Virus record (IMG/VR): IMGVR_UViG_3300028833_000001
Span: 287,171-351,170 of that record
Source: a virus
Lineage: Duplodnaviria; Heunggongvirae; Uroviricota; Caudoviricetes
DNA length: 64,000 nt
Strand: one strand, 5' to 3'
Shown here: one piece after another, positions 1,231-61,540 of the stretch
Numbering within the stretch: position 1 is the first letter of the stretch
Layout: every line of letters begins with the position of its first letter
Position numbers and translations under genes: made by a program
The notes under the pieces: generated by a model
What the model saw: only the letters and a program-made list of their open reading frames with translations
Told to the model about the DNA's origin: nothing
Databases searched by the model: none

Positions 1231-3942
1231 ATGGAAAGAAAGATTTTTTTGGAGAAGAACAACAGCGTTAATTCGATTAATCGTGAATCGAGAATGTCTA
1301 TAGGATTGTCTGTTAATGAGAAATTGTTAAAAGGTAATAATGTAGACACAGAATTTTCTTTGTTTGAAGAGTATAACGCTGAAAGGGATTCGTGCGACAA
1401 ATATCGTTTCTTGCTGAAAATAAATCCGATATGCACGAATGTTCTGTTTAACACTCAAACAGAGGTTGTTTATCTTGAGGGCTCTGATAGTGCTACTGTT
1501 ATATCTGACCAATCAACTATTTCGCCAAACACAATTAATGGTGGGCAAAATAACATACAAAATTCAACTGTCATAAACAGAAAACAAGCTATACGAGATA
1601 CTGAATATTCTCATAATAGCAATGGCGATTTTTCTTATCATTGCGGTGTTGATATGTTCAATAACCATCAAATACGTAATATAGGTTTTTCGCATGTTAA
1701 CCAAATTAGTACTTCAATGTCCAATCAGGATTATGCAATGCAAAAGGGTGTTTATAACACCATTAAAGATTTTATGAGAGACGGAAGCGGTATGCCTATT
1801 ACTGGGGATGTCAATCCAAGGTACAACAGTAATAGTTATAACACTAAATTACATTTATACACTACTGATAACATAAGAACGATGAAAAGAGCTTATGTTG
1901 AAGAAATTTCTGAACAAAATGGGTGGATAGGTTTTTTTAATAAAAGCAATATTGACATTAAGAACAATGAAGAGGATACAGCGAGGATTAATTGTGTTAT
2001 AAACAACAAAAAACCGTGCGAATATATTGATTTGTATCCAGATAGAAGTCTATTTTCATTTGTTCCAAAGTATAACAAATATAGGAAAAGGGACGAAAAA
2101 AATTGGGATTATTGTATAACATACCCATTTTTAAAGGATTACGATTTAGTTGATACTATTTGTTGCGGTAGAACTCAAGCCATTAGATGTTCAGTTAAAG
2201 AAACGGTAACGCCAACTGGAAATGCCGTTATAGAATGTTCATCGTTATTTAAACATACCTTAAAAGAAGGAAGTGTAATAAACGTGTATTATTATGAGGT
2301 GGGTATGCACAATACACTGACGTTCAAAAAGTATCCTGGTAAAGTAACTGTATATTATGTTGGTGATGTTAACGGTTTAAACAATGATAATGTATTCAAT
2401 ATTAGATACGATGAAATTAGCGACATACTAGACAACATAATAAATTATGGACTTTATTATAAAAAAGTTGAAAACGGTGAAGAATGTGAATACTACTTTA
2501 GAAAATATAAGAAATTATTTGGTGTTAATAATAGCGGGAATAGAACAAAAGAACTCAAAAGCAATGTCGGGGCAGTGGCTTTTGGGCAGACAATTTACGG
2601 AGATGCAACAGCCCAAGTAACGTTTATTGATGATATTGACGTTTCTGGGTTAGTTGACCATCATGGAAGGCCGTTGTCTGAAGTGTATTTTACTGTCATT
2701 AAAAGAAATGCTGGGCACAATTTATGGTATTATCAAGACAATACATCGTCATCAGCCATCGAATTTTCGCATTGTTTCGGAAAAGTAACCAGCGGAGTTA
2801 AACTATATGGTGATAATAAAATTAATTTTGATTACAATATTAATAAATTGCATAATATTAATTCAAAGGTAAATATCCATCCGATTCCGTATAACCACGT
2901 TTATGACGTTCTTGGAGATGCAGTATTGTCTGGCACGCCAAAAGTTATTGAAAATAATATAACAAATTTAGATTCAATATTTTACGGGAATTTAGTTGAA
3001 TTTAATAAATCTGAGTATGAAGAGACTGAGTTAACTCCAGTTTTTCACAGATTTAATACTGAGCAGCGCGAATATTGTAAAGACAATAAATACGCTGAGA
3101 TATTTCATGATGAAATTAGGTTTGACGATTATGATTTTAAGAATTCTAATAATACTCAGTTTGAAGTAAATGAGCTTGATTATTCTAATATTTCAATTAG
3201 CGGAACAAATATTAAAGTATTCGGAAATTTACGGCCAGAGGGTTATTTTTATAACCCGCACACAAAAATCGCAATAAAAAAAGAAAGCGAAATAGTAAAA
3301 ACAGCAAAAGCCAAATATTTGAATTTTATTTCAATATCTGGAGCGTTTTACACAGTAAAAAACTGTACCATAGTATCTATTGAAGTGCCAACTGGTTATC
3401 AAATTTTGCGTGGAGAGCATATTGCCGTGTATGATAGAGGTGATGGGATAAATATACATGATATTAAATGGGGTGAAGTATGCAAGGTAAACGGTAATTT
3501 ACTTGAAATAGAATTTCAAGGAAGCCCATTTGGGTCGTTTCCAGTACAATATGGCGGAGTATACGATATAACATACATATTGCAAGAAGAAAGTGATGGG
3601 GTTAGGAGATTTTATATGTTCTACTCGAATGATGGTGTTCCTAATTATGCCACATTTGTTAAATCAAATTTAACATTTGTTTGGAGGGGATTAGATTTGA
3701 TGTCTGAATGCAATTATGGAGATGAATTATATAACATACCATTTGCCAATGGCAGATTGTATGTTGAGAAAAACATTAATTTTTTTGTCAAAAGACAAGA
3801 CCCTAACGGAAAATTCGGCTTATTATATGGGCTAAATGCAACTTATAACAACCCAGTGAATTTATTTAGTTTACCAGGGACAGAATTTGATATGTCACAA
3901 GCAGAAGAATTTTACAATAATTTAAATAATGTTTGCTATTAA
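1231..3942 (+). CDS. large hypothetical, probable baseplate/tail structural protein
   Basis: 903-aa ORF in a tightly packed + strand operon. No recognised catalytic motif. Confidence 0.6.
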   Translation: MERKIFLEKNNSVNSINRESRMSIGLSVNEKLLKGNNVDTEFSLFEEYNAERDSCDKYRFLLKINPICTNVLFNTQTEVVYLEGSDSATVISDQSTISPNTINGGQNNIQNSTVINRKQAIRDTEYSHNSNGDFSYHCGVDMFNNHQIRNIGFSHVNQISTSMSNQDYAMQKGVYNTIKDFMRDGSGMPITGDVNPRYNSNSYNTKLHLYTTDNIRTMKRAYVEEISEQNGWIGFFNKSNIDIKNNEEDTARINCVINNKKPCEYIDLYPDRSLFSFVPKYNKYRKRDEKNWDYCITYPFLKDYDLVDTICCGRTQAIRCSVKETVTPTGNAVIECSSLFKHTLKEGSVINVYYYEVGMHNTLTFKKYPGKVTVYYVGDVNGLNNDNVFNIRYDEISDILDNIINYGLYYKKVENGEECEYYFRKYKKLFGVNNSGNRTKELKSNVGAVAFGQTIYGDATAQVTFIDDIDVSGLVDHHGRPLSEVYFTVIKRNAGHNLWYYQDNTSSSAIEFSHCFGKVTSGVKLYGDNKINFDYNINKLHNINSKVNIHPIPYNHVYDVLGDAVLSGTPKVIENNITNLDSIFYGNLVEFNKSEYEETELTPVFHRFNTEQREYCKDNKYAEIFHDEIRFDDYDFKNSNNTQFEVNELDYSNISISGTNIKVFGNLRPEGYFYNPHTKIAIKKESEIVKTAKAKYLNFISISGAFYTVKNCTIVSIEVPTGYQILRGEHIAVYDRGDGINIHDIKWGEVCKVNGNLLEIEFQGSPFGSFPVQYGGVYDITYILQEESDGVRRFYMFYSNDGVPNYATFVKSNLTFVWRGLDLMSECNYGDELYNIPFANGRLYVEKNINFFVKRQDPNGKFGLLYGLNATYNNPVNLFSLPGTEFDMSQAEEFYNNLNNVCY

Positions 3943-9741: not shown

Positions 9742-12701
9742 TGGCAAAAAGTAATCAATATATTAAAACAAAAGCCAATTATACGTTAGTCAAAAAACAC
9801 ATGACAACGTATAGTGGAGATATTTTTGAACAGGACCATCTTACAATATCTGCTCCGTATGATGGGGTGTATGATGACTCCGTTACTATGTTTTCCGATT
9901 CAAATTTTAAATTTAGAATCAGGGGTAAAGAAAATGCAAAGAAAAAACATTTTAACGGAAATTGGTTAGAGTCTGATAATGGGTCAACATATTGGACAGA
10001 GGCAGATTGCAATCAAGTCAATACATCAGAGACTTCAATTAAACTTAAACCGAATTACACATCATTAAAGGATTTTGCTTATTTTGGGTCGGCAAGCCAA
10101 TTAGTTAAGGCTACAATTACAGATATAATTATGCATTATCCAGGTGGAATATATTATTTAGGTGATTCATACCCAATTGATGTTAATGGTGACACATATT
10201 ATTTGGTTGCTAACGATTTTGATATTGATATAATGTCGATGGGGTGTGTTTTCGACGAAGAGGAAAACCCGATGAGAGTTTTAAGTGCTTCGTTGGATAA
10301 ATACAATTTCAAAACCACAGACAAAAAATTAACCGAACTGACATTTGAATATATAAATGGATTATGTAATGGCGAAATTTTAGGAAAATCAACAATTGTG
10401 AGTGATGGCGGTGCAGTTGTGTTATATGTTTATTTGGACAAAAACGGAGAAAAAAAGATATTAACCGATGACCCTGGAGCTTTTGGTAATCCTATAATTG
10501 TACCAACAAAAGAAGTTTTTGATGAAATGTATGATTCGTTAGATGATTTTTCAAAGGTTTTACTTGATTATACAACGAATCCATTGTTTGTGGCAAAATT
10601 TGATACCCCACATTTTAATCGCGACGGTAGATATTGGGTACTAGAAAAATATATATTTCCAAGTATTACCAGTTCAGACGGTAAATTTTTCAGTCCAAGA
10701 ACATCTGGCCCAGCATTTTCTGGGTATTTTGCCAAACTAATGGCATTGGCTGAATCTTTGGATGAGTTTGATTCTAATAATTTGATTAGAATGTTGACTC
10801 ACGAATCAATTTTGAATTTGGATTGGAGTGTATTAAACACGAAATATGCCGATGACGAAGATAATTCTGTTGACAACTCCAGAATTAAAGCTATGCTTGA
10901 AATTTATGCTAGACAGTTTGATGACATAAAAAGATATGCTGACAACGTTAAAAACACTACTAAAATTTCGTATAATGAATCTAGTAATGTTCCTGACTAT
11001 TTTCTTTCTGATAAAGCGAATAATGATGGGTGGGATTTGCCAAATATGGCCCCAATAGAGGATACAAGTATATACACTAATGTTTTATACCCGCAATCAA
11101 TGTCTGTCGGGTACAATAGTTCTGATTATAATATAGAGTTTGAAAGAAGACTAATACTTAATAGTCGGTTCATAAAATCATTAAGGGGTACGAGATATGG
11201 TGTTGAAACGCTTCTTGGCTTGCTTGGATTGAAAAATGGCGCAAAGGAAACAGACCAATCCATAAACACTGGTTTGACAGCTGGATATTATGAATTGCAT
11301 GAACATATTGCGGTTGCAACTACATTTCCGTCATTAATAGACATTAATTTAGCCATTGAAAATAGCGATGATTATGACGAAACTTATTCTCAATATTTTG
11401 ATTACCCAATAGCTATCGTAAACAGGGGTGAAACGCCTAGTGCAAATTTTGTTGTTCCGTGGTACGACAGAAAAAATAGCTATACAAATTATATGTACTT
11501 TCAGATGAATGGAGGTTGGGGGCACGTTCCGTCTAAAAAAATTAATCTTGAAATTAGTACGGCTTCGTCAATAACGGAAACTGCAATAACATCAATCTAC
11601 GATGAAACTATACAATATTTGAAGTATGCCACCACAATAGATGAGTTGACTGGATACACGCAATCAAATATTAGGAGAAACATGGTTTGTTATGTCGAAA
11701 ATATAGAGGGTATTTACGGTGGATACAATGCGGATGAGGAAGATAAGGCTATAATAGAAGAAACTAGTGGCGAATGTTTTTCTCACTATTTTATATTGAA
11801 AAACACAGCGTTGTCTCCGTTTATAGGATTTGTAACTCCAGATGAAAGTGGGGGGAAATATAATTGTTATGGGTGGAGAAACGTATTCAGACATGAATTT
11901 GATGGAACATCGGCCATAACTTGCGATGGAACTTGCGTTTTGTATTTAGAATCAATACAATCGGATAACAGTGGAAATAACATGCACGCTGGATTTGGTG
12001 AATATGACGATGGGTTAGAATATCTTGAATATTTCAATCAAATTTTTAAAAACAAATTAGAAAATAACCAATTTTCACTAGTTTCGTCAAACGATGGGGC
12101 AGACCTACCAATTTCAATTGACACAATTAAAAATATTGGGTTTAATGTTGATTTTAATTTAGTTGTTGACGATACAAAATGCCATTGTTTCATTAATACA
12201 GATTCAACTGGAATAGAAATAATTGACCCGTCTGTGCTTGGAGATGATGCGAATGATAGCGAACAGACTGATAGTGAAACTTTGGTTATAGTTGGCGATG
12301 AAGTTGACGATGATATGGATTTAACAAATTGGGATGATATATATGATTCTTTTGTTAATCCTATTGATGGTGGTGATTCAGTTGATGAAATGGCTGCTCT
12401 ATCGGTTATTAATGTTAAAAATACAAATATTAATTTTATAACGAACAATAATATTCATTATAGGGAATACATACAATATATCATAATACCTTTATTAGAG
12501 CAAATGATTCCGTCTACAACGATTTTTTCATACACATTTGACGGAGAAGAAAGCCCAGCAATTGCTGAACCGTTTAGTAATGCTCAACCAATTTCAATAA
12601 CCACATTGTATGCCGATGCTGCTGTTCCGTCAGAATATGAACCATTGACCGAGTTTGACATCAATACAAATACAATACCGACAATAATAGAAGTAGAATA
12701 A
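9741..12701 (+). CDS. probable baseplate wedge protein
   Basis: 986 aa. The segment NVPDYFL...GW...RRLILNSRFIKSLRGTRYGVETLLGLLG resembles the KGT..G.E.LL motif of P2 gpI-type wedge proteins. Confidence 0.5.
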   Translation: MAKSNQYIKTKANYTLVKKHMTTYSGDIFEQDHLTISAPYDGVYDDSVTMFSDSNFKFRIRGKENAKKKHFNGNWLESDNGSTYWTEADCNQVNTSETSIKLKPNYTSLKDFAYFGSASQLVKATITDIIMHYPGGIYYLGDSYPIDVNGDTYYLVANDFDIDIMSMGCVFDEEENPMRVLSASLDKYNFKTTDKKLTELTFEYINGLCNGEILGKSTIVSDGGAVVLYVYLDKNGEKKILTDDPGAFGNPIIVPTKEVFDEMYDSLDDFSKVLLDYTTNPLFVAKFDTPHFNRDGRYWVLEKYIFPSITSSDGKFFSPRTSGPAFSGYFAKLMALAESLDEFDSNNLIRMLTHESILNLDWSVLNTKYADDEDNSVDNSRIKAMLEIYARQFDDIKRYADNVKNTTKISYNESSNVPDYFLSDKANNDGWDLPNMAPIEDTSIYTNVLYPQSMSVGYNSSDYNIEFERRLILNSRFIKSLRGTRYGVETLLGLLGLKNGAKETDQSINTGLTAGYYELHEHIAVATTFPSLIDINLAIENSDDYDETYSQYFDYPIAIVNRGETPSANFVVPWYDRKNSYTNYMYFQMNGGWGHVPSKKINLEISTASSITETAITSIYDETIQYLKYATTIDELTGYTQSNIRRNMVCYVENIEGIYGGYNADEEDKAIIEETSGECFSHYFILKNTALSPFIGFVTPDESGGKYNCYGWRNVFRHEFDGTSAITCDGTCVLYLESIQSDNSGNNMHAGFGEYDDGLEYLEYFNQIFKNKLENNQFSLVSSNDGADLPISIDTIKNIGFNVDFNLVVDDTKCHCFINTDSTGIEIIDPSVLGDDANDSEQTDSETLVIVGDEVDDDMDLTNWDDIYDSFVNPIDGGDSVDEMAALSVINVKNTNINFITNNNIHYREYIQYIIIPLLEQMIPSTTIFSYTFDGEESPAIAEPFSNAQPISITTLYADAAVPSEYEPLTEFDINTNTIPTIIEVE

Positions 12702-49747: not shown

Positions 49748-51367
49748 ATGATAAAAATTATTGTTGCAGTAGGTAATTATATCCCAGAAAAGGGGTTTCC
49801 AATTGGAAAAAACGGTGGCTTGGCCTGGAATTTTCCAGAAGACCTTAAATGGTTCAGAAAAACAACTGAACACAATATAGTTGTAATGGGCAGAAACACG
49901 TATAAATCATTCGGAGGTAAGCCATTACAGAATAGAGACAATTATATAGTTTCAAATTCAATGACCGAAATCCCAGAAGGATTTTGCGGGATTTTGCACA
50001 GCATTGATGAAATTGTTGACTTATCTAAAAACCAAATAGGAGACGTGTATATTATTGGTGGCGCAGAGTTATACAGGTCAGTTCTTGACGCTGATATTGT
50101 TGATGAAGTTTTAAACGACTTTATTGATGTTGAAGTTCCAGATGCAGACACATTTTTCCAGCCTTTGGATTTGAATAAGTGGAAAATTGATGAAGAGGGT
50201 ATAAGATTAAGCGATAAATGCACTGTCAATACATTTAAACATGCAAAATTTTTTAATGATGTTGATGAACAATATTTGAATTTGGTGCAAGATGTTATAG
50301 TTAATGGTGAATTGAAAGAAACACGGGCTGGAATGACAAGGTCTGTTTTTGGAAAGCAACTTCGTTTCAACCTTAAAAATGGTTTGCCATTGCTAACAAC
50401 AAAAAAAGTTTACACAAACGGTATCATTCATGAACTTATTTGGTTCCTTAAAGGCGATACGAATATTAAATATCTTGTTGACAATAATGTGCATATATGG
50501 GATGATGACGCATACAGATATTATCTTGAGCTTGTTGAAAAAAACAACGAAGTCTTTAAATGTGATGACACACCATTGTTGAATGCTCATTACTTTGAGC
50601 CTATCACAAAGGAAGAGTTCTTGAAAGCTGTCATTGAAGAAAAAGACTGTTGGTTATACCTGGATAGATTGGCTGGTTTTATGTCATACTATCCAAACAA
50701 CTATTATATTCATTATAAATTTGGCGACCTTGGTCCTGTTTATGGTGAACAATGGAGAAACTGGTATGGCGTTGACCAAATAAAGACAGTTATTGAAACA
50801 TTAAGAACAAATCCAGATGACAGAAGAATGATTGTCTCTGCTTGGAATGTTAAAGAATTGGATAAAATGGCTCTTCCTCCTTGTCATTACTCATTTCAAT
50901 TTTATACAAAAAAAATGGATATTGTAGAAAGAATGAATTGGGCCTTAGAACATAATTTAAATTGTTGGGATGAAAAATCTTTGGATGACAATAATGTACC
51001 TTCACGGAAATTAAGTTGCCTCTGGAATCAACGTAGTGTAGATTCAATATGCGGATTGCCGTTCAATATAGCATCATATGCAATTCTTACTTATATGATT
51101 GCACAATGCTGTAATATGAAACCAGATGAATTGATATTTAATGGTGGAGACGTTCATGTATATGAAAACCATATAGAAGCATTTACAGAACAATTATACA
51201 GAAATCCACATAAATATGCATTACCACAATTGGAGCTTAATCCAAACGTAAAAGAAATTGATGATTTTAGGGCATATGATATTAAAATAGTTGGATATCA
51301 ATCATACCCAGCGATAAAATATCAATTAAATGTAGGCCTAAATAATAACAATGGCGAAGCTAAATAA
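49748..51367 (+). CDS. thyA: bifunctional dihydrofolate reductase-thymidylate synthase
   Basis: N-terminal DHFR (IGKNGGLAW..PEDLKWF, VVMGRNT, IIGGAELY, DTFF) in frame with ThyA (LPPCH, QRSVD, GLPFNIASY, GDVHVY). Confidence 0.95.
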   Translation: MIKIIVAVGNYIPEKGFPIGKNGGLAWNFPEDLKWFRKTTEHNIVVMGRNTYKSFGGKPLQNRDNYIVSNSMTEIPEGFCGILHSIDEIVDLSKNQIGDVYIIGGAELYRSVLDADIVDEVLNDFIDVEVPDADTFFQPLDLNKWKIDEEGIRLSDKCTVNTFKHAKFFNDVDEQYLNLVQDVIVNGELKETRAGMTRSVFGKQLRFNLKNGLPLLTTKKVYTNGIIHELIWFLKGDTNIKYLVDNNVHIWDDDAYRYYLELVEKNNEVFKCDDTPLLNAHYFEPITKEEFLKAVIEEKDCWLYLDRLAGFMSYYPNNYYIHYKFGDLGPVYGEQWRNWYGVDQIKTVIETLRTNPDDRRMIVSAWNVKELDKMALPPCHYSFQFYTKKMDIVERMNWALEHNLNCWDEKSLDDNNVPSRKLSCLWNQRSVDSICGLPFNIASYAILTYMIAQCCNMKPDELIFNGGDVHVYENHIEAFTEQLYRNPHKYALPQLELNPNVKEIDDFRAYDIKIVGYQSYPAIKYQLNVGLNNNNGEAK

Positions 51368-54001: not shown

Positions 54002-54718
54002 ATGAATCAGAAAAGAGAATACGTTAGAAAAAATTTGGATATAATAAACAAAATGATAGAAAACAAACGACCTAAGTTTGAAATAGCTAGGGTTTTGGGA
54101 GTTAAATATTCCACATTAGATAAATATTTAAAAGAATTTGGTATTGATTATAAAGGAAACCCAAATAGAAAGGGAATTCCGCATATGGAAGGAAGAATGC
54201 TAATTGAAGAATATTTAAATGGAAATAGAAACATACAAGCATCTAAACTAAGACAAAAACTAATAGAAAATGGTTTAAAAGAAGAAAAATGTGAATGCTG
54301 TGGGTTAACTGAATGGATGGGTAAAAAAATTCCGTTAGAACTTCACCATAAAAATATGAACCATAACGATAATAGTTTAGACAATCTTCAAATACTTTGT
54401 TCTAATTGTCATTCTTTAGCACATGAATATAATAATACAAAAGGTAAACCAGAAAGTTCTATTGATACTATTTTATTAAAAAAACGTGTTAAAGAGGTTG
54501 GTCATTGCAAACAGTGCGGAAAAGAATTAACAAATAGCCAGAAAATTTATTGTTCACAAGAGTGCGCTCATTTAAATGTTAGTAAAATACCACAAAAAAA
54601 CGAATTAATTGATAAATTAAATGAGTTTAACTGGAATAAAACAAAAACTGGTAAGTATTTTGGCGTAAGTGATAACGCAATTCGTAAATGGATTAAAAAG
54701 TACGACATAAAAAAATAA
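54002..54718 (+). CDS. HNH homing endonuclease with HTH domains
   Basis: CECCG...LELHHKN.NHNDNSLDNLQILCSNCH, a second CxxC..YCS..C finger and a C-terminal HTH. Confidence 0.9.
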   Translation: MNQKREYVRKNLDIINKMIENKRPKFEIARVLGVKYSTLDKYLKEFGIDYKGNPNRKGIPHMEGRMLIEEYLNGNRNIQASKLRQKLIENGLKEEKCECCGLTEWMGKKIPLELHHKNMNHNDNSLDNLQILCSNCHSLAHEYNNTKGKPESSIDTILLKKRVKEVGHCKQCGKELTNSQKIYCSQECAHLNVSKIPQKNELIDKLNEFNWNKTKTGKYFGVSDNAIRKWIKKYDIKK

Positions 54719-54898: not shown

Positions 54899-55044
54899 GC
54901 TCCTATAGTTCAATGGACAGAACAGAAGTTTCCTATACAAGAGTAAACTTGTTTAAATCATTTCTATGTGAAATTGGTTTTATTGGGTTCGAGTCCCACA
55001 CATAGAACAAACTTCAAATCTTGGTTCGAATCCAAGTAGGAGTA
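54899..55044 (+). tRNA. trnR: tRNA-Arg(CCT) interrupted by a 74-nt insert in the anticodon loop
   Basis: GAAGT-TTCCT[insert]AA-ACTTC. Acceptor, D and T arms are intact. Confidence 0.8.
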
Positions 55045-56291: not shown

Positions 56292-56361
56292 CGGGATGTA
56301 GTTTAATGTTAAAATAATTGTGCTTAGGACAGTGATATAGGTGCGAATCCTATCATCTCGG
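56292..56361 (+). tRNA. Pro-like tRNA paralog with non-canonical anticodon loop (GCTTAGG)
   Basis: Body nearly identical to the next tRNA-Pro and with the same 3' trailer CAAATATTTCATA. T-loop is TGCGAAT. Confidence 0.5.
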
Positions 56362-56394
56362 CAAATATTTCATATAGTATAAACATAATAGCAT

Positions 56395-56527
56395 CGGGAT
56401 GTAGTTTAATTTGGTAAAATGCGTTAATTTTTTCGTGTTTTGTTCTTTAAAAACACAGACAGCAACTTTTCTTTAAAATTATTGTTTTGGGGAAACCGTG
56501 TTATAGGTTCGAATCCTATCATCCCGA
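56395..56527 (+). tRNA. trnP: tRNA-Pro(GGG) with 60-nt insert between positions 28/29
   Basis: CG[56424-56483]GTT-TTGGGGA-AACCG, with C1-G72 and A73. Confidence 0.75.
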
Positions 56528-56837: not shown

Positions 56838-57018
56838 TGCGGGATGGAGCAGAGGTCAGCTCGTCAGGCTCAATACAGAGTGGTTTTCTGAAAAAAACTG
56901 TTGATGCCAATTGTTCAAGAGAAGAGCCGATACACAATCAAATTGTGTGTCGAGGCTGGTTCGAGTCCAGCTGGCGTCGCTAACCTGAAGGTCGGGGGTT
57001 CGAATCCCTCTCCCGCTA
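56838..57018 (+). tRNA. trnfM: initiator-type tRNA-fMet(CAT) interrupted by a 108-nt insert containing a nested tRNA-like fold
   Basis: 1:72 mismatch, GGAGCAG..GCTCG D-arm and TCAGG-CTCA[56873-56980]TAA-CCTGA. Confidence 0.8.
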
Positions 57019-57771: not shown

Positions 57772-57786
57772 CTGATAGAAAAATAA

Positions 57787-57855
57787 AGGATACATACAGC
57801 AAACCTTTTTTTTAAGCATCAAACTTTTAATTTGAAAACGCTAAGAAAGTATCCT
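57787..57855 (+). ncRNA. free-standing ACAGCAA element displaying a Lys(UUU) anticodon stem-loop
   Basis: Closing helix AGGATAC/GTATCCT, ATACAGCAA bulge and TCAAA-CTTTTAA-TTTGA. Confidence 0.65.
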
Positions 57856-57862
57856 GTTTTAA

Positions 57863-58585: not shown

Positions 58586-58653
58586 CTTAAAATAAAATTT
58601 ATCCCGAAACGTGTTTTTAGCTTTTTATGACTATTTATAAAAAAAATAGTAAT

Positions 58654-59358
58654 ATGAATAATTTTGAAAATTGCAAATCGTTAAATGACATTGCTAGGCA
58701 AGAATTTGGAAAAGCAAACTATACTAATCGTGAGAAAGCTAAAAAACTATTATTTGAACACGGAATAGATTGGTTAGATTGGCTAGAATCTATTAAAATT
58801 TCTAATAAAAAGTTTTGTCTTGTTTGTGGTAAAGAATTAAGAAATGGTCAAACAAAATTTTGCAGCCATTCATGTTCTGCTGGATATAACAATAAGTTTC
58901 GAAAAACATATAAAGATAATGAAAGCCGAGAACATCATGAAAAAATTACCAAAAGTGACAAATTCTGTTTGTATTGTGGCGCAAAATTAACAAATCAACA
59001 AAAATTATTTTGTAATAATAAATGTCAACAAGATTTCAAGTATAAAGAATATATAGACCGATGGATAAATGGTGATGAAAATGGTTTAAAGGGCCAGTAT
59101 TCTTTATCAAGGCACATCAGGCGATTTTTATTGGAAAAAACAAATTGTAAATGTGAAAAATGTGGCTGGGGAGAAAAAAATCCATATACAAACACAATCC
59201 CATTAGAAATACATCATATTGATGGTGATTATACAAATAACAAGGAAGAGAATCTTCAGGTTTTGTGTCCAAATTGTCATTCTTTAACAGAAACACACAA
59301 ATCACATAATAAGAACGGAAGACAAGGTAGAAGAAAATATTATAAAAAAACAGAATAA
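58654..59358 (+). CDS. HNH homing endonuclease
   Basis: Two CxxCG..FC..C fingers and CEKCG...LEIHHIDGDYTNNKEENLQVLCPNCH. Start set at the second ATG, downstream of ACTATTTAT. Confidence 0.9.
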   Translation: MNNFENCKSLNDIARQEFGKANYTNREKAKKLLFEHGIDWLDWLESIKISNKKFCLVCGKELRNGQTKFCSHSCSAGYNNKFRKTYKDNESREHHEKITKSDKFCLYCGAKLTNQQKLFCNNKCQQDFKYKEYIDRWINGDENGLKGQYSLSRHIRRFLLEKTNCKCEKCGWGEKNPYTNTIPLEIHHIDGDYTNNKEENLQVLCPNCHSLTETHKSHNKNGRQGRRKYYKKTE

Positions 59359-60796: not shown

Positions 60797-60915
60797 CGGG
60801 GAGTAGCTCAGTTGGTTAGAGCGCGTAATGTAGATTCTTGTAAAAGAATCAAACAGCAATGTTTACGAATGTCATTTGAAGACCGTGGTCGTGGGTTCGA
60901 GTCCCACCTCCCCAG
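60797..60915 (+). tRNA. Gln(TTG)-anticodon tRNA with 45-nt insert between positions 28/29
   Basis: CG[60826-60870]GTC-ATTTGAA-GACCG, canonical D and T arms, C1.A72 and G73. Confidence 0.7.
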
Positions 60916-61379: not shown

Positions 61380-61455
61380 GCGGGTGTAGCTCAGTTGGTT
61401 CAGTAGCGCTTGCCTTACAAGCAAGAGGTCGTAGGTTCGACTCCTACCATCCGCA
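61380..61455 (+). tRNA. trnV: tRNA-Val(TAC)
   Basis: CTTGC-CTTACAA-GCAAG. Confidence 0.93.
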
Positions 61456-61465
61456 CATTTATTAT

Positions 61466-61540
61466 GCTCCAGTAGCTCAATGGATGAGCGGCACCCTTCT
61501 AAGGTGCGGGTTGTAGGTTCGAGTCCTACCTGGAGTACCA
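61466..61540 (+). tRNA. trnR: tRNA-Arg(TCT)
   Basis: GCACC-CTTCTAA-GGTGC with encoded CCA. Confidence 0.95.

What the first reader, a model, noticed from the sequence alone, without database searches (positions are those of the whole stretch)
56395..56527. tRNA-Pro(GGG) with a 60-nt ACAGCAA module grafted into the anticodon stem at position 28/29
SEEN: the anticodon stem reads CG|insert|GTT / AACCG. The insert (56424-56483) is TTAATTT..., then hairpin GTGTTTT/AAAACAC, then AGACAGCAA, then ...AAATTATT. It forms a side arm with an unpaired ANACAGCAA strand and leaves the anticodon loop intact. Position 28/29 is not a typical bacterial intron site. The same position and motif recur at 60797-60915. 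INFERENCE: either a new mini-intron class or a protein-binding appendage that turns a tRNA into a bait or sensor.
Basis: seen in the sequence. Interest (0 to 1): 0.78.

Follow-up and report, generated by a model that had tools for sequence, protein, structure and literature searches.

The report
tRNA mimic with Ro60-like protein handle
This giant-phage "proline tRNA with a 60-base insert" is real, but the insert is most likely a docking handle for a Ro60-like ring protein the phage encodes, which makes the RNA a tRNA-shaped relative of Y RNAs and probably not a tRNA with a new kind of intron.

Summary
Window 56395-56527 is a complete tRNA-Pro(GGG) body with 60 nt (56424-56483) inserted between positions 28 and 29. 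A Gln(UUG) gene at 60797-60915 carries a 45-nt insert at the same site. Both inserts are a 7-bp hairpin, 2 nt, then ACAGCAA.

The same stem+ACAGCAA unit occurs in related phages:
- inside tRNA anticodon arms, at 28/29, 29/30 or 31/32;
- as free-standing RNAs in which the stem closes the two ends.

It also lies directly upstream of DUF2828/DUF7788 genes in about 13 of 48 unrelated phage contigs, where about 1 is expected by chance. A covariance model trained only on those gene-adjacent copies finds this window's free-standing copy at E 3e-7.

This genome encodes such a protein outside the window. Its model matches Ro60 over its whole length (Z 18.5), and its gene sits beside an RNA ligase and a polynucleotide kinase.

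Best reading (0.6): the insert is a kept protein handle, circularly permuted, on a tRNA-shaped Y-RNA-like partner. A protein-assisted intron is not excluded (0.15).

The scan found this family before on other DNA. I found no paper describing it.

The parts
56395..56423 (+). 5' part of the tRNA-Pro(GGG) body: acceptor strand CGGGATG, D arm, G26, C27, G28
   Evidence: Rfam tRNA alignment; sequence
56424..56483 (+). 60-nt insert, the handle module grafted between positions 28 and 29
   Evidence: Removing it gives a 73-nt tRNA with a perfect CGGTT/AACCG anticodon stem
56435..56456 (+). Handle hairpin: GTGTTTT (56435-56441), loop starting with G, AAAACAC (56450-56456). It corresponds to the closing stem of the free-standing handles, here closed by a loop (circular permutation).
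   Evidence: Sequence. The same 7-bp hairpin with different letters occurs in the other tRNA-borne copies. The equivalent stem in 17 gene-adjacent copies covaries.
56459..56465 (+). Invariant single-stranded word ACAGCAA, 2 nt after the hairpin
   Evidence: It is invariant in alignment A2. CAGCAA is invariant in A3.
56484..56527 (+). 3' part of the tRNA body: G29-T30-T31, loop TTGGGGA (anticodon GGG at 56489-56491, G37), AACCG, T arm, acceptor strand CATCCCG, discriminator A
60797..60915 (+). Second handle-bearing gene, a tRNA-Gln(UUG)-like body. The insert is 60826-60870: hairpin GATTCTT/AAGAATC at 60833-60850, ACAGCAA at 60853-60859.
   Evidence: Rfam tRNA 43.5 bits; sequence. The whole gene is absent from the close relative L005.
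57785..57857 (+). Free-standing handle RNA: stem GGATAC/GTATCC closes the ends, then AT-ACAGCAA. The cargo is a bare Lys(UUU) anticodon stem-loop.
   Evidence: Model R1, trained only on DUF2828-adjacent handles, scores it 41.9 bits, E 3e-7. Fold. Covarying homologs in other contigs.

Best explanation
The 60-nt insert is a protein-binding handle. It is a 7-bp stem followed, after 2 nt, by single-stranded ACAGCAA.

The handle belongs to a family of small phage RNAs that partner a Ro60-like ring protein of the DUF2828/DUF7788 family. Here that protein is the 534-aa product of G000:8232-9836, which lies outside the window.

In the usual layout the stem closes the RNA's two ends and the variable cargo sits inside. 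In this gene the layout is circularly permuted: the stem is capped by a loop and the handle is grafted as a side arm into the 5' strand of the anticodon stem. The cargo is then a whole tRNA-Pro(GGG) body with its anticodon loop and acceptor end intact.

The RNA is therefore most likely kept unspliced. It would work like a Y RNA: it docks the ring protein through the handle and offers a tRNA shape to some tRNA-binding enzyme, nuclease or repair factor.

Shown here:
- the anatomy of the insert;
- the family in other phages;
- the statistical link between handle and gene;
- the Ro60 fold of the protein.

Inferred:
- that this protein binds this handle;
- that the insert is not removed;
- what the particle does. 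RNA repair or counter-defence around tRNA damage is the leading guess, from the neighbouring RNA ligase and polynucleotide kinase genes.
For: 1. The same unit occurs in seven tRNA genes of five phage contigs, with different stem letters but kept pairing. The stems are GTGTTTT/AAAACAC, GATTCTT/AAGAATC, GGCTTCT/GGAAACC and TTTTTCC/GGAAAAG.

2. Free-standing copies with the stem closing the ends lie in the same tRNA arrays.

3. Of 48 non-redundant IMG/VR loci around DUF2828 homologs, 17 have ACAGCAA on the gene strand within 200 nt upstream. The expected number is 0.021 per window. About 13 of the 17 have a closing stem plus a 0-2 nt spacer directly before the ORF.

4. In the alignment of 17 such copies the stem is 90.4% paired, against 42-56% when the partner strand is slid. 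Seven of its 8 pairs show compensatory changes.

5. Model R1, built only from those copies, finds:
- window 57785-57857 at E 3e-7;
- G000:133537-133612(-) at E 4.5e-5;
- free-standing copies in the two relatives.

6. The genome encodes P0001. It scores 25.7 bits on the DUF2828 N-terminal part (below the cut-off) and 69.7 bits on DUF7788/vWA.
- Its model (pLDDT 77.5, pTM 0.78) has only Ro60/TROVE structures as its top 13 Foldseek matches.
- VIA-align gives Z 18.5, 4.5 A over 407 residues, to Xenopus Ro60. The top ten matches are all Ro60.
- PHROGs calls the family an RNA-binding protein.

7. The only other complete genome with these modules, G001, also has a homolog.

8. A handle-bearing tRNA-Ile(UAU) lies 9.7 kb from the DUF2828 gene, on the same strand, in L023 and L024.

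9. Each handle-bearing tRNA has an intact gene with the same or a synonymous anticodon in the same array. Two of the G001 copies have A33, and one of these also has G55, at otherwise universal tRNA positions. They do not look like tRNAs needed for decoding.

10. The helix at the insert's own ends is strong here (7 bp), about 3 bp in the Gln copy, and variable elsewhere. The junction geometry that a structure-specific splicing enzyme would need is therefore not conserved.

11. Precedent: Ro60 with tRNA-like YrlA RNAs in bacteria and 22 phages (PMC4201824), and phage phiLo Ro60 with two Y-like RNAs upstream of its gene (PMC12135203).
Against: - No binding has been shown. The link is genomic only.
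- In this genome the protein gene is not next to the RNAs. They are about 22 kb apart if the record is joined end to end and 334 kb apart as written. There is no handle directly upstream of the gene.
- P0001 scores below Pfam's cut-off for DUF2828 itself and does not hit TROVE.
- The tRNA body is fully canonical: C1-G72, A73, G37, intact T and D loops. That is what one would also expect of an exon pair meant to be joined.
- Six of the seven tRNA-borne copies share the context CG|insert|G, which could be a splice-site or insertion-site requirement.
- The gene next to P0001 is an RNA ligase with an N-terminal OB domain, which could in principle seal such a nick.
- The three partial relatives (G002, G003, G005) show no homolog, but they are only 26-49% complete.
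Confidence: 0.6

Rival explanations
1. It is a real intron of a new, protein-assisted kind. The Ro60-like protein, or another factor that recognises the hairpin plus ACAGCAA, positions the side arm. An unknown nuclease cuts at both ends of the insert. The nick left in the anticodon stem is then sealed by the phage RNA ligase encoded next to the protein gene, giving a working tRNA-Pro(GGG).
For: - Removing the insert restores a perfect, fully canonical tRNA.
- The context CG|insert|G recurs in 6 of 7 copies.
- In G001 one near-identical module sits in three different adjacent tRNA bodies, as if it had spread.
- An RNA ligase (PHA02142 OB domain plus PF09414) and a polynucleotide kinase lie directly beside the DUF2828 gene.
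- Two other tRNA genes of the array carry other inserts in the anticodon loop.
Against: - Free-standing and gene-adjacent copies of the same handle have no exons.
- The insert position varies (28/29, 29/30, 31/32) and the helix at the insert's ends is not conserved.
- No insert-less ortholog was seen. The close relative L005 lacks the whole Gln gene, not just its insert.
- The genome has no tRNA splicing endonuclease and no RtcB.
- The region has no group I match.
- The ligase is not a neighbour of DUF2828 in any of 55 other loci by tblastn.
- Two G001 copies have A33, which would make poor decoders even after splicing.
Confidence: 0.15
2. The stem+ACAGCAA unit is an RNA processing, stability or regulatory signal that does not act through the DUF2828 protein. 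Examples would be a nuclease entry site, a protective end structure or a leader element. Its position next to DUF2828 genes would then reflect regulation of that gene only.
For: - Many gene-adjacent copies sit 25-130 nt before the start codon, like a leader.
- Several free-standing copies are followed by a run of T, like a terminator.
Against: - A leader element for one gene would not be expected inside tRNA anticodon stems or as a dozen separate RNAs in tRNA arrays.
- The long, specific association with one protein family that has an RNA-binding ring fold is most simply explained by binding, which would also cover autoregulation.
Confidence: 0.12
3. The insert is a small mobile DNA element that landed in the gene, and the tRNA is a dead pseudogene.
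For: - The insert has AT-rich ends that can pair.
- HNH endonuclease genes lie within the array.
- The CG|G context is shared.
Against: - The two copies in this genome share only the structure and the 7-mer, not sequence, so they are not recent copies of one element.
- The tRNA bodies show no decay.
- The insert is identical in the close relative L005, while the tRNA loops around it differ at 2-3 bases.
- There is no target duplication.
Confidence: 0.05

Closest known systems
YrlA-type Y RNAs with Ro60/Rsr in bacteria and phages (Rfam RF02553; Chen et al. 2014, PMC4201824)
   Same: Both are a small RNA that joins a protein-docking stem to a tRNA-like domain. Both are encoded by the same genome as a ring-shaped HEAT-repeat plus vWA protein, and in some genomes RNA repair enzymes are encoded nearby. 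This pairing is already known in phages.
   Different: - The protein is DUF2828/DUF7788. It is Ro60-like by fold only and gets no TROVE Pfam hit.
- The docking motif is stem-NN-ACAGCAA, not GNCGAA.
- RF02553 does not match the locus.
- The cargo here is a complete tRNA with a normal anticodon loop and acceptor end. The handle is a side arm in the anticodon stem and does not replace an arm.
- There are many RNA genes per genome, and they are scattered in the tRNA array instead of lying within 4 kb of the protein gene.
Thermus phage phiLo Ro60 with Yrl1/Yrl2 (PMC12135203; PDB 9KOP, 9L5Y)
   Same: It is a phage-encoded Ro60 ring that binds phage-encoded small RNAs lying just upstream of its gene. 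9KOP is among the best structural matches to P0001 (Foldseek E 3e-7; Z 18.1).
   Different: The phiLo RNAs use the CGAA bulge motif and have no tRNA body. Sequence identity to P0001 is about 14%.
tRNA introns: bacterial and phage group I introns, and archaeal bulge-helix-bulge introns at non-canonical positions (PMC3984707, PMC4090602)
   Same: Each is an extra segment inside a tRNA gene whose removal would restore a canonical tRNA. Archaeal introns can sit in the anticodon stem.
   Different: - At 60 nt it is far too small for a group I core, and there is no Rfam hit.
- There is no bulge-helix-bulge at the junctions.
- The genome has no splicing endonuclease gene.
- The same unit exists without exons.

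Membership tests
tRNA (Rfam RF00005) | Cloverleaf match above the gathering score | tested here: met
   42.1 bits against a cut-off of 29, model positions 1-71, with 73 nt looped out of the anticodon arm.
Stem+ACAGCAA handle RNAs associated with DUF2828 (a family defined in this scan; not found in the literature) | A 7-8 bp stem of free sequence, a 0-3 nt spacer, then single-stranded ACAGCAA on the 3' side of the purine-rich strand. G usually follows the other strand. | tested here: met
   GTGTTTT-G...AAAACAC-AG-ACAGCAA. The layout is permuted, with the stem closed by a loop. For that reason model R1 of the unpermuted form gives only a partial hit here (56448-56506, E 0.19).
Stem+ACAGCAA handle RNAs associated with DUF2828 (a family defined in this scan; not found in the literature) | The same genome encodes a DUF2828/DUF7788 Ro60-like protein | tested here: met
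   P0001 at G000:8232-9836(-). DUF7788 scores 69.7 bits; DUF2828 scores 25.7 bits, below its cut-off of 29. The fold matches Ro60 at Z 18.5.
Stem+ACAGCAA handle RNAs associated with DUF2828 (a family defined in this scan; not found in the literature) | The protein physically binds the handle | not testable with these tools
   The evidence is genomic association only.
YrlA / Y RNA (Rfam RF02553) | Match to the covariance model | tested here: not met
   No hit at the locus at E up to 1. The only RF02553 hit in 52-64 kb is 21.6 bits (cut-off 69) over ordinary tRNAs at 61403-61513.
YrlA / Y RNA (Rfam RF02553) | Ro60-binding motif GNCGAAN0-1G in the terminal stem (PMC4201824) | tested here: not met
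   The motif is absent from 56395-56527 by reading the sequence. The conserved word is ACAGCAA.
YrlA / Y RNA (Rfam RF02553) | A TROVE-domain Ro60 gene within 4 kb on the same strand | tested here: not met
   PF05731 gives no hit in the genome. The Ro60-like gene lies far from the array and on the other strand.
Group I intron in a tRNA gene | Conserved P3-P9 catalytic core, about 200 nt or more, inserted in the anticodon loop | tested here: not met
   The insert is 60 nt and sits in the anticodon stem. No intron family matches 52-64 kb at E up to 1.
Archaeal/eukaryal protein-spliced tRNA intron | Bulge-helix-bulge at the two junctions, and a splicing endonuclease available | tested here: not met
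   No pair of 3-nt bulges separated by a 4-bp helix can be drawn at the junctions. PF01974 has no hit in the genome, while the archaeal control genomes do match. A host enzyme cannot be checked because the host is unknown.

The most novel reading that the evidence does not exclude
The handle marks a conditional tRNA. The phage's Ro60-like ring grips the ACAGCAA arm. With a nuclease and the neighbouring nick-sealing RNA ligase and kinase, it removes the arm. Extra tRNAs would then be switched on only when the phage's own RNA repair particle is present. That would be a protein-guided tRNA splicing pathway in bacteria and their viruses.
Probability: 0.12. Interest if true: 0.9.

Novelty: new variant of a known kind. 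Interest (0 to 1): 0.62.

Why it matters
Ro60 and its Y RNAs are an old puzzle. The particles are conserved from bacteria to humans, but what the RNA's variable half recruits is known in very few cases.

Here a large, unstudied branch of Ro60-like proteins has its own RNA handle. I found more than 2,000 homologs in metagenomes, mostly from big phages.

The phages attach that handle to whole tRNAs, bare anticodon arms and other tRNA pieces. This points to tRNA-binding factors as the targets, for example host anticodon nucleases, repair enzymes or modification enzymes. It also gives a set of natural RNA variants to test.

It is a practical warning for annotation. These genes are reported as tRNAs with introns or are missed altogether.

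Tried and rejected
- Phage GenBank records: only single tRNA genes matched, and no relative was found.
- The 554-aa neighbour of the array has no relatives in IMG/VR.
- Promoter, 3'-trailer or processing-signal idea: tRNA trailers here start C-A-A, but they do not share the handle.
- A hand-written stem scanner with a 6-bp minimum gave too many chance hits to use for counting.
- An automatic test for anticodon-arm-like hairpins downstream of the motif mostly picked up T arms and was uninformative.
- Searching the relatives with the protein sequence P0001 missed the G001 homolog, which the Pfam profile then found.
- The RNA ligase, DUF932 and kinase neighbours are not general partners of DUF2828: 0, 1 and 6 of 55 loci respectively.
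- The Arg(CCT) gene of L005 is not an insert-less ortholog of the window's Arg gene; the bodies differ too much.
- MAFFT did not align the 5' strand of the hairpin consistently across the tRNA-borne copies, so their pairing was read by eye, not counted.
- The literature search for DUF2828 returned only plant and tardigrade papers.
- Complex prediction was not used because it does not take RNA.

Full report
**What is there**

The window lies in a 361,445-bp virus record with 33.6% G+C. A tRNA array of about 30 genes lies at window 52.7-61.5 kb.

The Rfam tRNA model matches 56395-56527 over its whole length (42.1 bits), with 73 nt looped out of the anticodon arm.

Reading the sequence:
- The gene has a 29-nt 5' part that ends C27-G28.
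- A 60-nt insert follows at 56424-56483.
- The 44-nt 3' part starts G29-T30-T31, followed by the loop TTGGGGA and then AACCG.
- Without the insert it is a 73-nt tRNA-Pro(GGG) with C1-G72, A73, G37 and normal D and T loops.

The insert contains these elements in order:
- TAATTTT, which pairs with AAAATTA near the insert's 3' end;
- the hairpin GTGTTTT/AAAACAC;
- AG;
- ACAGCAA at 56459-56465.

A tRNA-Gln(UUG)-like gene at 60797-60915 has a 45-nt insert (60826-60870) at the same position. It carries hairpin GATTCTT/AAGAATC, then AA, then ACAGCAA.

**The module is a family, and the tRNA site is not fixed**

Three sets of relatives were found.

1. G001, a complete 372,793-bp phage contig, was reached through a small protein of the array. 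Its tRNA array has three consecutive tRNA genes with the same kind of insert: an Asp(GUC)-like, a Pro(UGG)-like and a Lys(CUU) gene. It also has five free-standing copies of the motif.

2. G004 (L005), an 11-kb fragment nearly identical to the window, carries the same Pro(GGG) gene with an identical insert. It lacks the whole Gln gene.

3. G003 carries a Pro(UGG) gene with the module at the stem-loop boundary (31/32), plus a run of free-standing copies.

In addition, two large contigs fetched for another reason (L023, L024) carry a tRNA-Ile(UAU) with the module after A27-C28-G29.

Across these seven genes:
- The hairpin letters differ while the pairing is kept.
- CAGCAA is invariant.
- The site is 28/29, 29/30 or 31/32, always on the 5' side of the anticodon arm.
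- Six of the seven share the context CG|insert|G.

In the free-standing copies the purine-rich strand, the spacer and ACAGCAA come first. A variable cargo follows, and the pyrimidine-rich strand comes last and closes the RNA. The tRNA-borne form is therefore the same unit opened at its ends and closed by a loop, that is, a circular permutation.

The window's free-standing copy (57785-57857) carries a bare Lys(UUU) anticodon stem-loop as cargo. Homologs in three other contigs keep it, with compensatory changes in both stems. Other copies carry a Tyr(GUA) arm, a T-arm-like hairpin or no recognisable tRNA part.

**Link to a protein**

Notes from earlier agents of this scan, made on other genomes, said that this handle accompanies a Ro60-like DUF2828 gene. 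I treated that as a lead and tested it here.

This genome has one such gene at G000:8232-9836 on the minus strand. Its 534-aa product, P0001, matches:
- DUF7788/vWA at 69.7 bits;
- the first third of DUF2828 at 25.7 bits, just under the cut-off.

It has more than 2,000 homologs in metagenomes, nearly all unnamed.

An AlphaFold model built on 34 homologs has pLDDT 77.5 and pTM 0.78.
- Its 13 best Foldseek matches in the PDB are all Ro60/TROVE structures, including the Ro60 of Thermus phage phiLo (E 3e-7 to 2e-4, full length).
- VIA-align gives Z 18.5, rmsd 4.5 A over 407 residues, to Xenopus Ro60. The ten best rows are all Ro60, well above the vWA-only matches at Z about 10.
- PHROGs labels the family 'RNA-binding protein'.

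G001, the other complete genome with the modules, has a divergent 451-aa homolog: DUF2828 45 bits, DUF7788 33 bits, hhalign 98.6%.

I then fetched 55 IMG/VR loci around homologs of P0001 with 24-60% identity.
- In 17 of 48 non-redundant loci, ACAGCAA lies on the gene strand within 200 nt upstream. The expected number is 0.021 per window, measured from the rest of the same loci.
- Four or five of these fall inside the ORF's own N-terminus and do not count.
- About 13 loci have a closing stem, a 0-2 nt spacer and ACAGCAA directly before the start codon. Others have tandem copies just downstream.
- In an alignment of 17 such copies the stem is 90.4% paired, against 42-56% when one strand is slid. 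Seven of its 8 pairs show compensatory changes.

A covariance model built only from these copies finds:
- the window's free-standing RNA at E 3e-7;
- a second copy at G000:133537-133612(-), near an isolated tRNA-Gly, at E 4.5e-5;
- free-standing copies in G001 and G003.

The array modules and the gene-adjacent handles are therefore one family. The handle goes with the Ro60-like gene far more often than chance allows.

**Intron or kept handle**

Points against an intron:
- The same unit exists with no exons.
- The site in the tRNA varies.
- The helix formed by the insert's own ends is 7 bp here, about 3 bp in the Gln gene and irregular elsewhere, so no conserved junction geometry exists.
- No group I or other intron model matches.
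- No bulge-helix-bulge can be drawn.
- The genome has no splicing endonuclease and no RtcB.
- I found no insert-less ortholog. The close relative differs by the presence of the whole gene.
- Every handle-bearing tRNA has an intact gene with the same or a synonymous anticodon in the same array.
- Two of the G001 copies have A at the universal U33, and one of them also has G at position 55. This fits mimics better than decoders.

Points that keep the intron idea alive:
- The tRNA body is perfectly canonical.
- The CG|G context recurs.
- One module has spread to three adjacent tRNA bodies in G001.
- The gene next to P0001 encodes an RNA ligase with an N-terminal OB domain, followed by DUF932 and a polynucleotide kinase. 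However, that ligase is not a neighbour of DUF2828 in any of the 55 other loci.

I put the kept-handle reading at 0.6 and a protein-assisted intron at 0.15.

**Comparison with what is known**

The closest known system is Ro60 with YrlA-type Y RNAs. There, a terminal stem docks the ring protein and a tRNA-like domain is displayed. The pair occurs in bacteria and in 22 phages, often beside RNA repair genes (PMC4201824; PMC7824862, section 3.4.9). Phage phiLo Ro60 binds two small RNAs encoded just upstream of its gene (PMC12135203).

The present RNA works like that on the evidence available, but it fails every membership test for YrlA:
- no RF02553 match;
- no GNCGAA motif;
- no TROVE-domain gene within 4 kb.

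Other differences:
- The protein family differs at the sequence level.
- The handle word is different.
- The cargo is a complete tRNA with the handle as an extra arm.
- The RNAs are multicopy and scattered through the tRNA array.

A full-text search for DUF2828 found nothing on phages or RNA.

**Verdict**

- This is a new variant of a known kind, the Ro60/Y-RNA particles.
- The scan had already met the same family on other DNA. This report adds an independent test of the handle-gene link, the Ro60 fold for this genome's protein, and the permutation argument for this locus.
- What the particle does is unknown. Binding itself still has to be shown.

Noticed in passing
window 56292-56362: A 71-nt tRNA-like gene just upstream shares the acceptor sequence of the Pro(GGG) body. 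ARAGORN calls it a UUA 'stop' anticodon. It has C instead of U at position 33 and TGCGAAT instead of TTCGAAT in the T loop. It may be an ochre suppressor or another mimic.
   Followed up: partly
window 54899-55044 and 56838-57018: Two more interrupted tRNA genes carry a different insert family, placed in the anticodon loop: Arg(CCT) with 74 nt and an initiator-like Met with 108 nt. Both inserts start ATACA(A)GAGT and contain a nested T-arm-like hairpin. They have no ACAGCAA.
   Followed up: partly
G000:5040-9836, minus strand (outside the window): Gene cluster: Ro60-like protein, then RNA ligase (OB domain plus PF09414), then DUF932, then an AAA_33 polynucleotide-kinase-like protein. DnaJ and an IMPDH-like gene lie upstream. 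It looks like an RNA repair cassette.
   Followed up: partly
G000:133537-133612, minus strand (outside the window): A second free-standing handle RNA (model R1, E 4.5e-5) lies about 500 nt from an isolated tRNA-Gly(UCC), far from the main array.
   Followed up: no
L003 9899-10205 (G001): Two handle-bearing tRNAs (Asp-like and Pro-like) have A at position 33. The Pro-like one also has TGCAATT as its T loop. The Asp-like copy has TGCAGCAA instead of ACAGCAA.
   Followed up: partly
L005 3982-4096 (minus strand) and L003 10556-10673: These are homologous tRNA-shaped genes in which a second T-arm-like hairpin (GCGGTTCGAGTCCGC) replaces the anticodon arm.
   Followed up: no
window 54002-54718 and 58627-59358: ORFs with weak HNH endonuclease and helix-turn-helix matches sit between the tRNA genes.
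   Followed up: no
window 49748-51367: A fused dihydrofolate reductase-thymidylate synthase (539 aa) is encoded just upstream of the array.
   Followed up: no
L002 3285-3354 and 9522-9756 (G002): The tRNA array of a more distant relative has a CUA-anticodon (amber suppressor-like) tRNA and a permuted tmRNA match, but no ACAGCAA modules. It also has two long tRNA hits with other inserts (3028-3123, 3805-3912).
   Followed up: no
L028, L032, L034, L037, L038 at about 9930-9960: In one subfamily of DUF2828 genes the ORF itself begins ATGAATACAAAGACAGCAAC. ACAGCAA therefore also occurs in the coding N-terminus. I excluded these from the handle count.
   Followed up: partly
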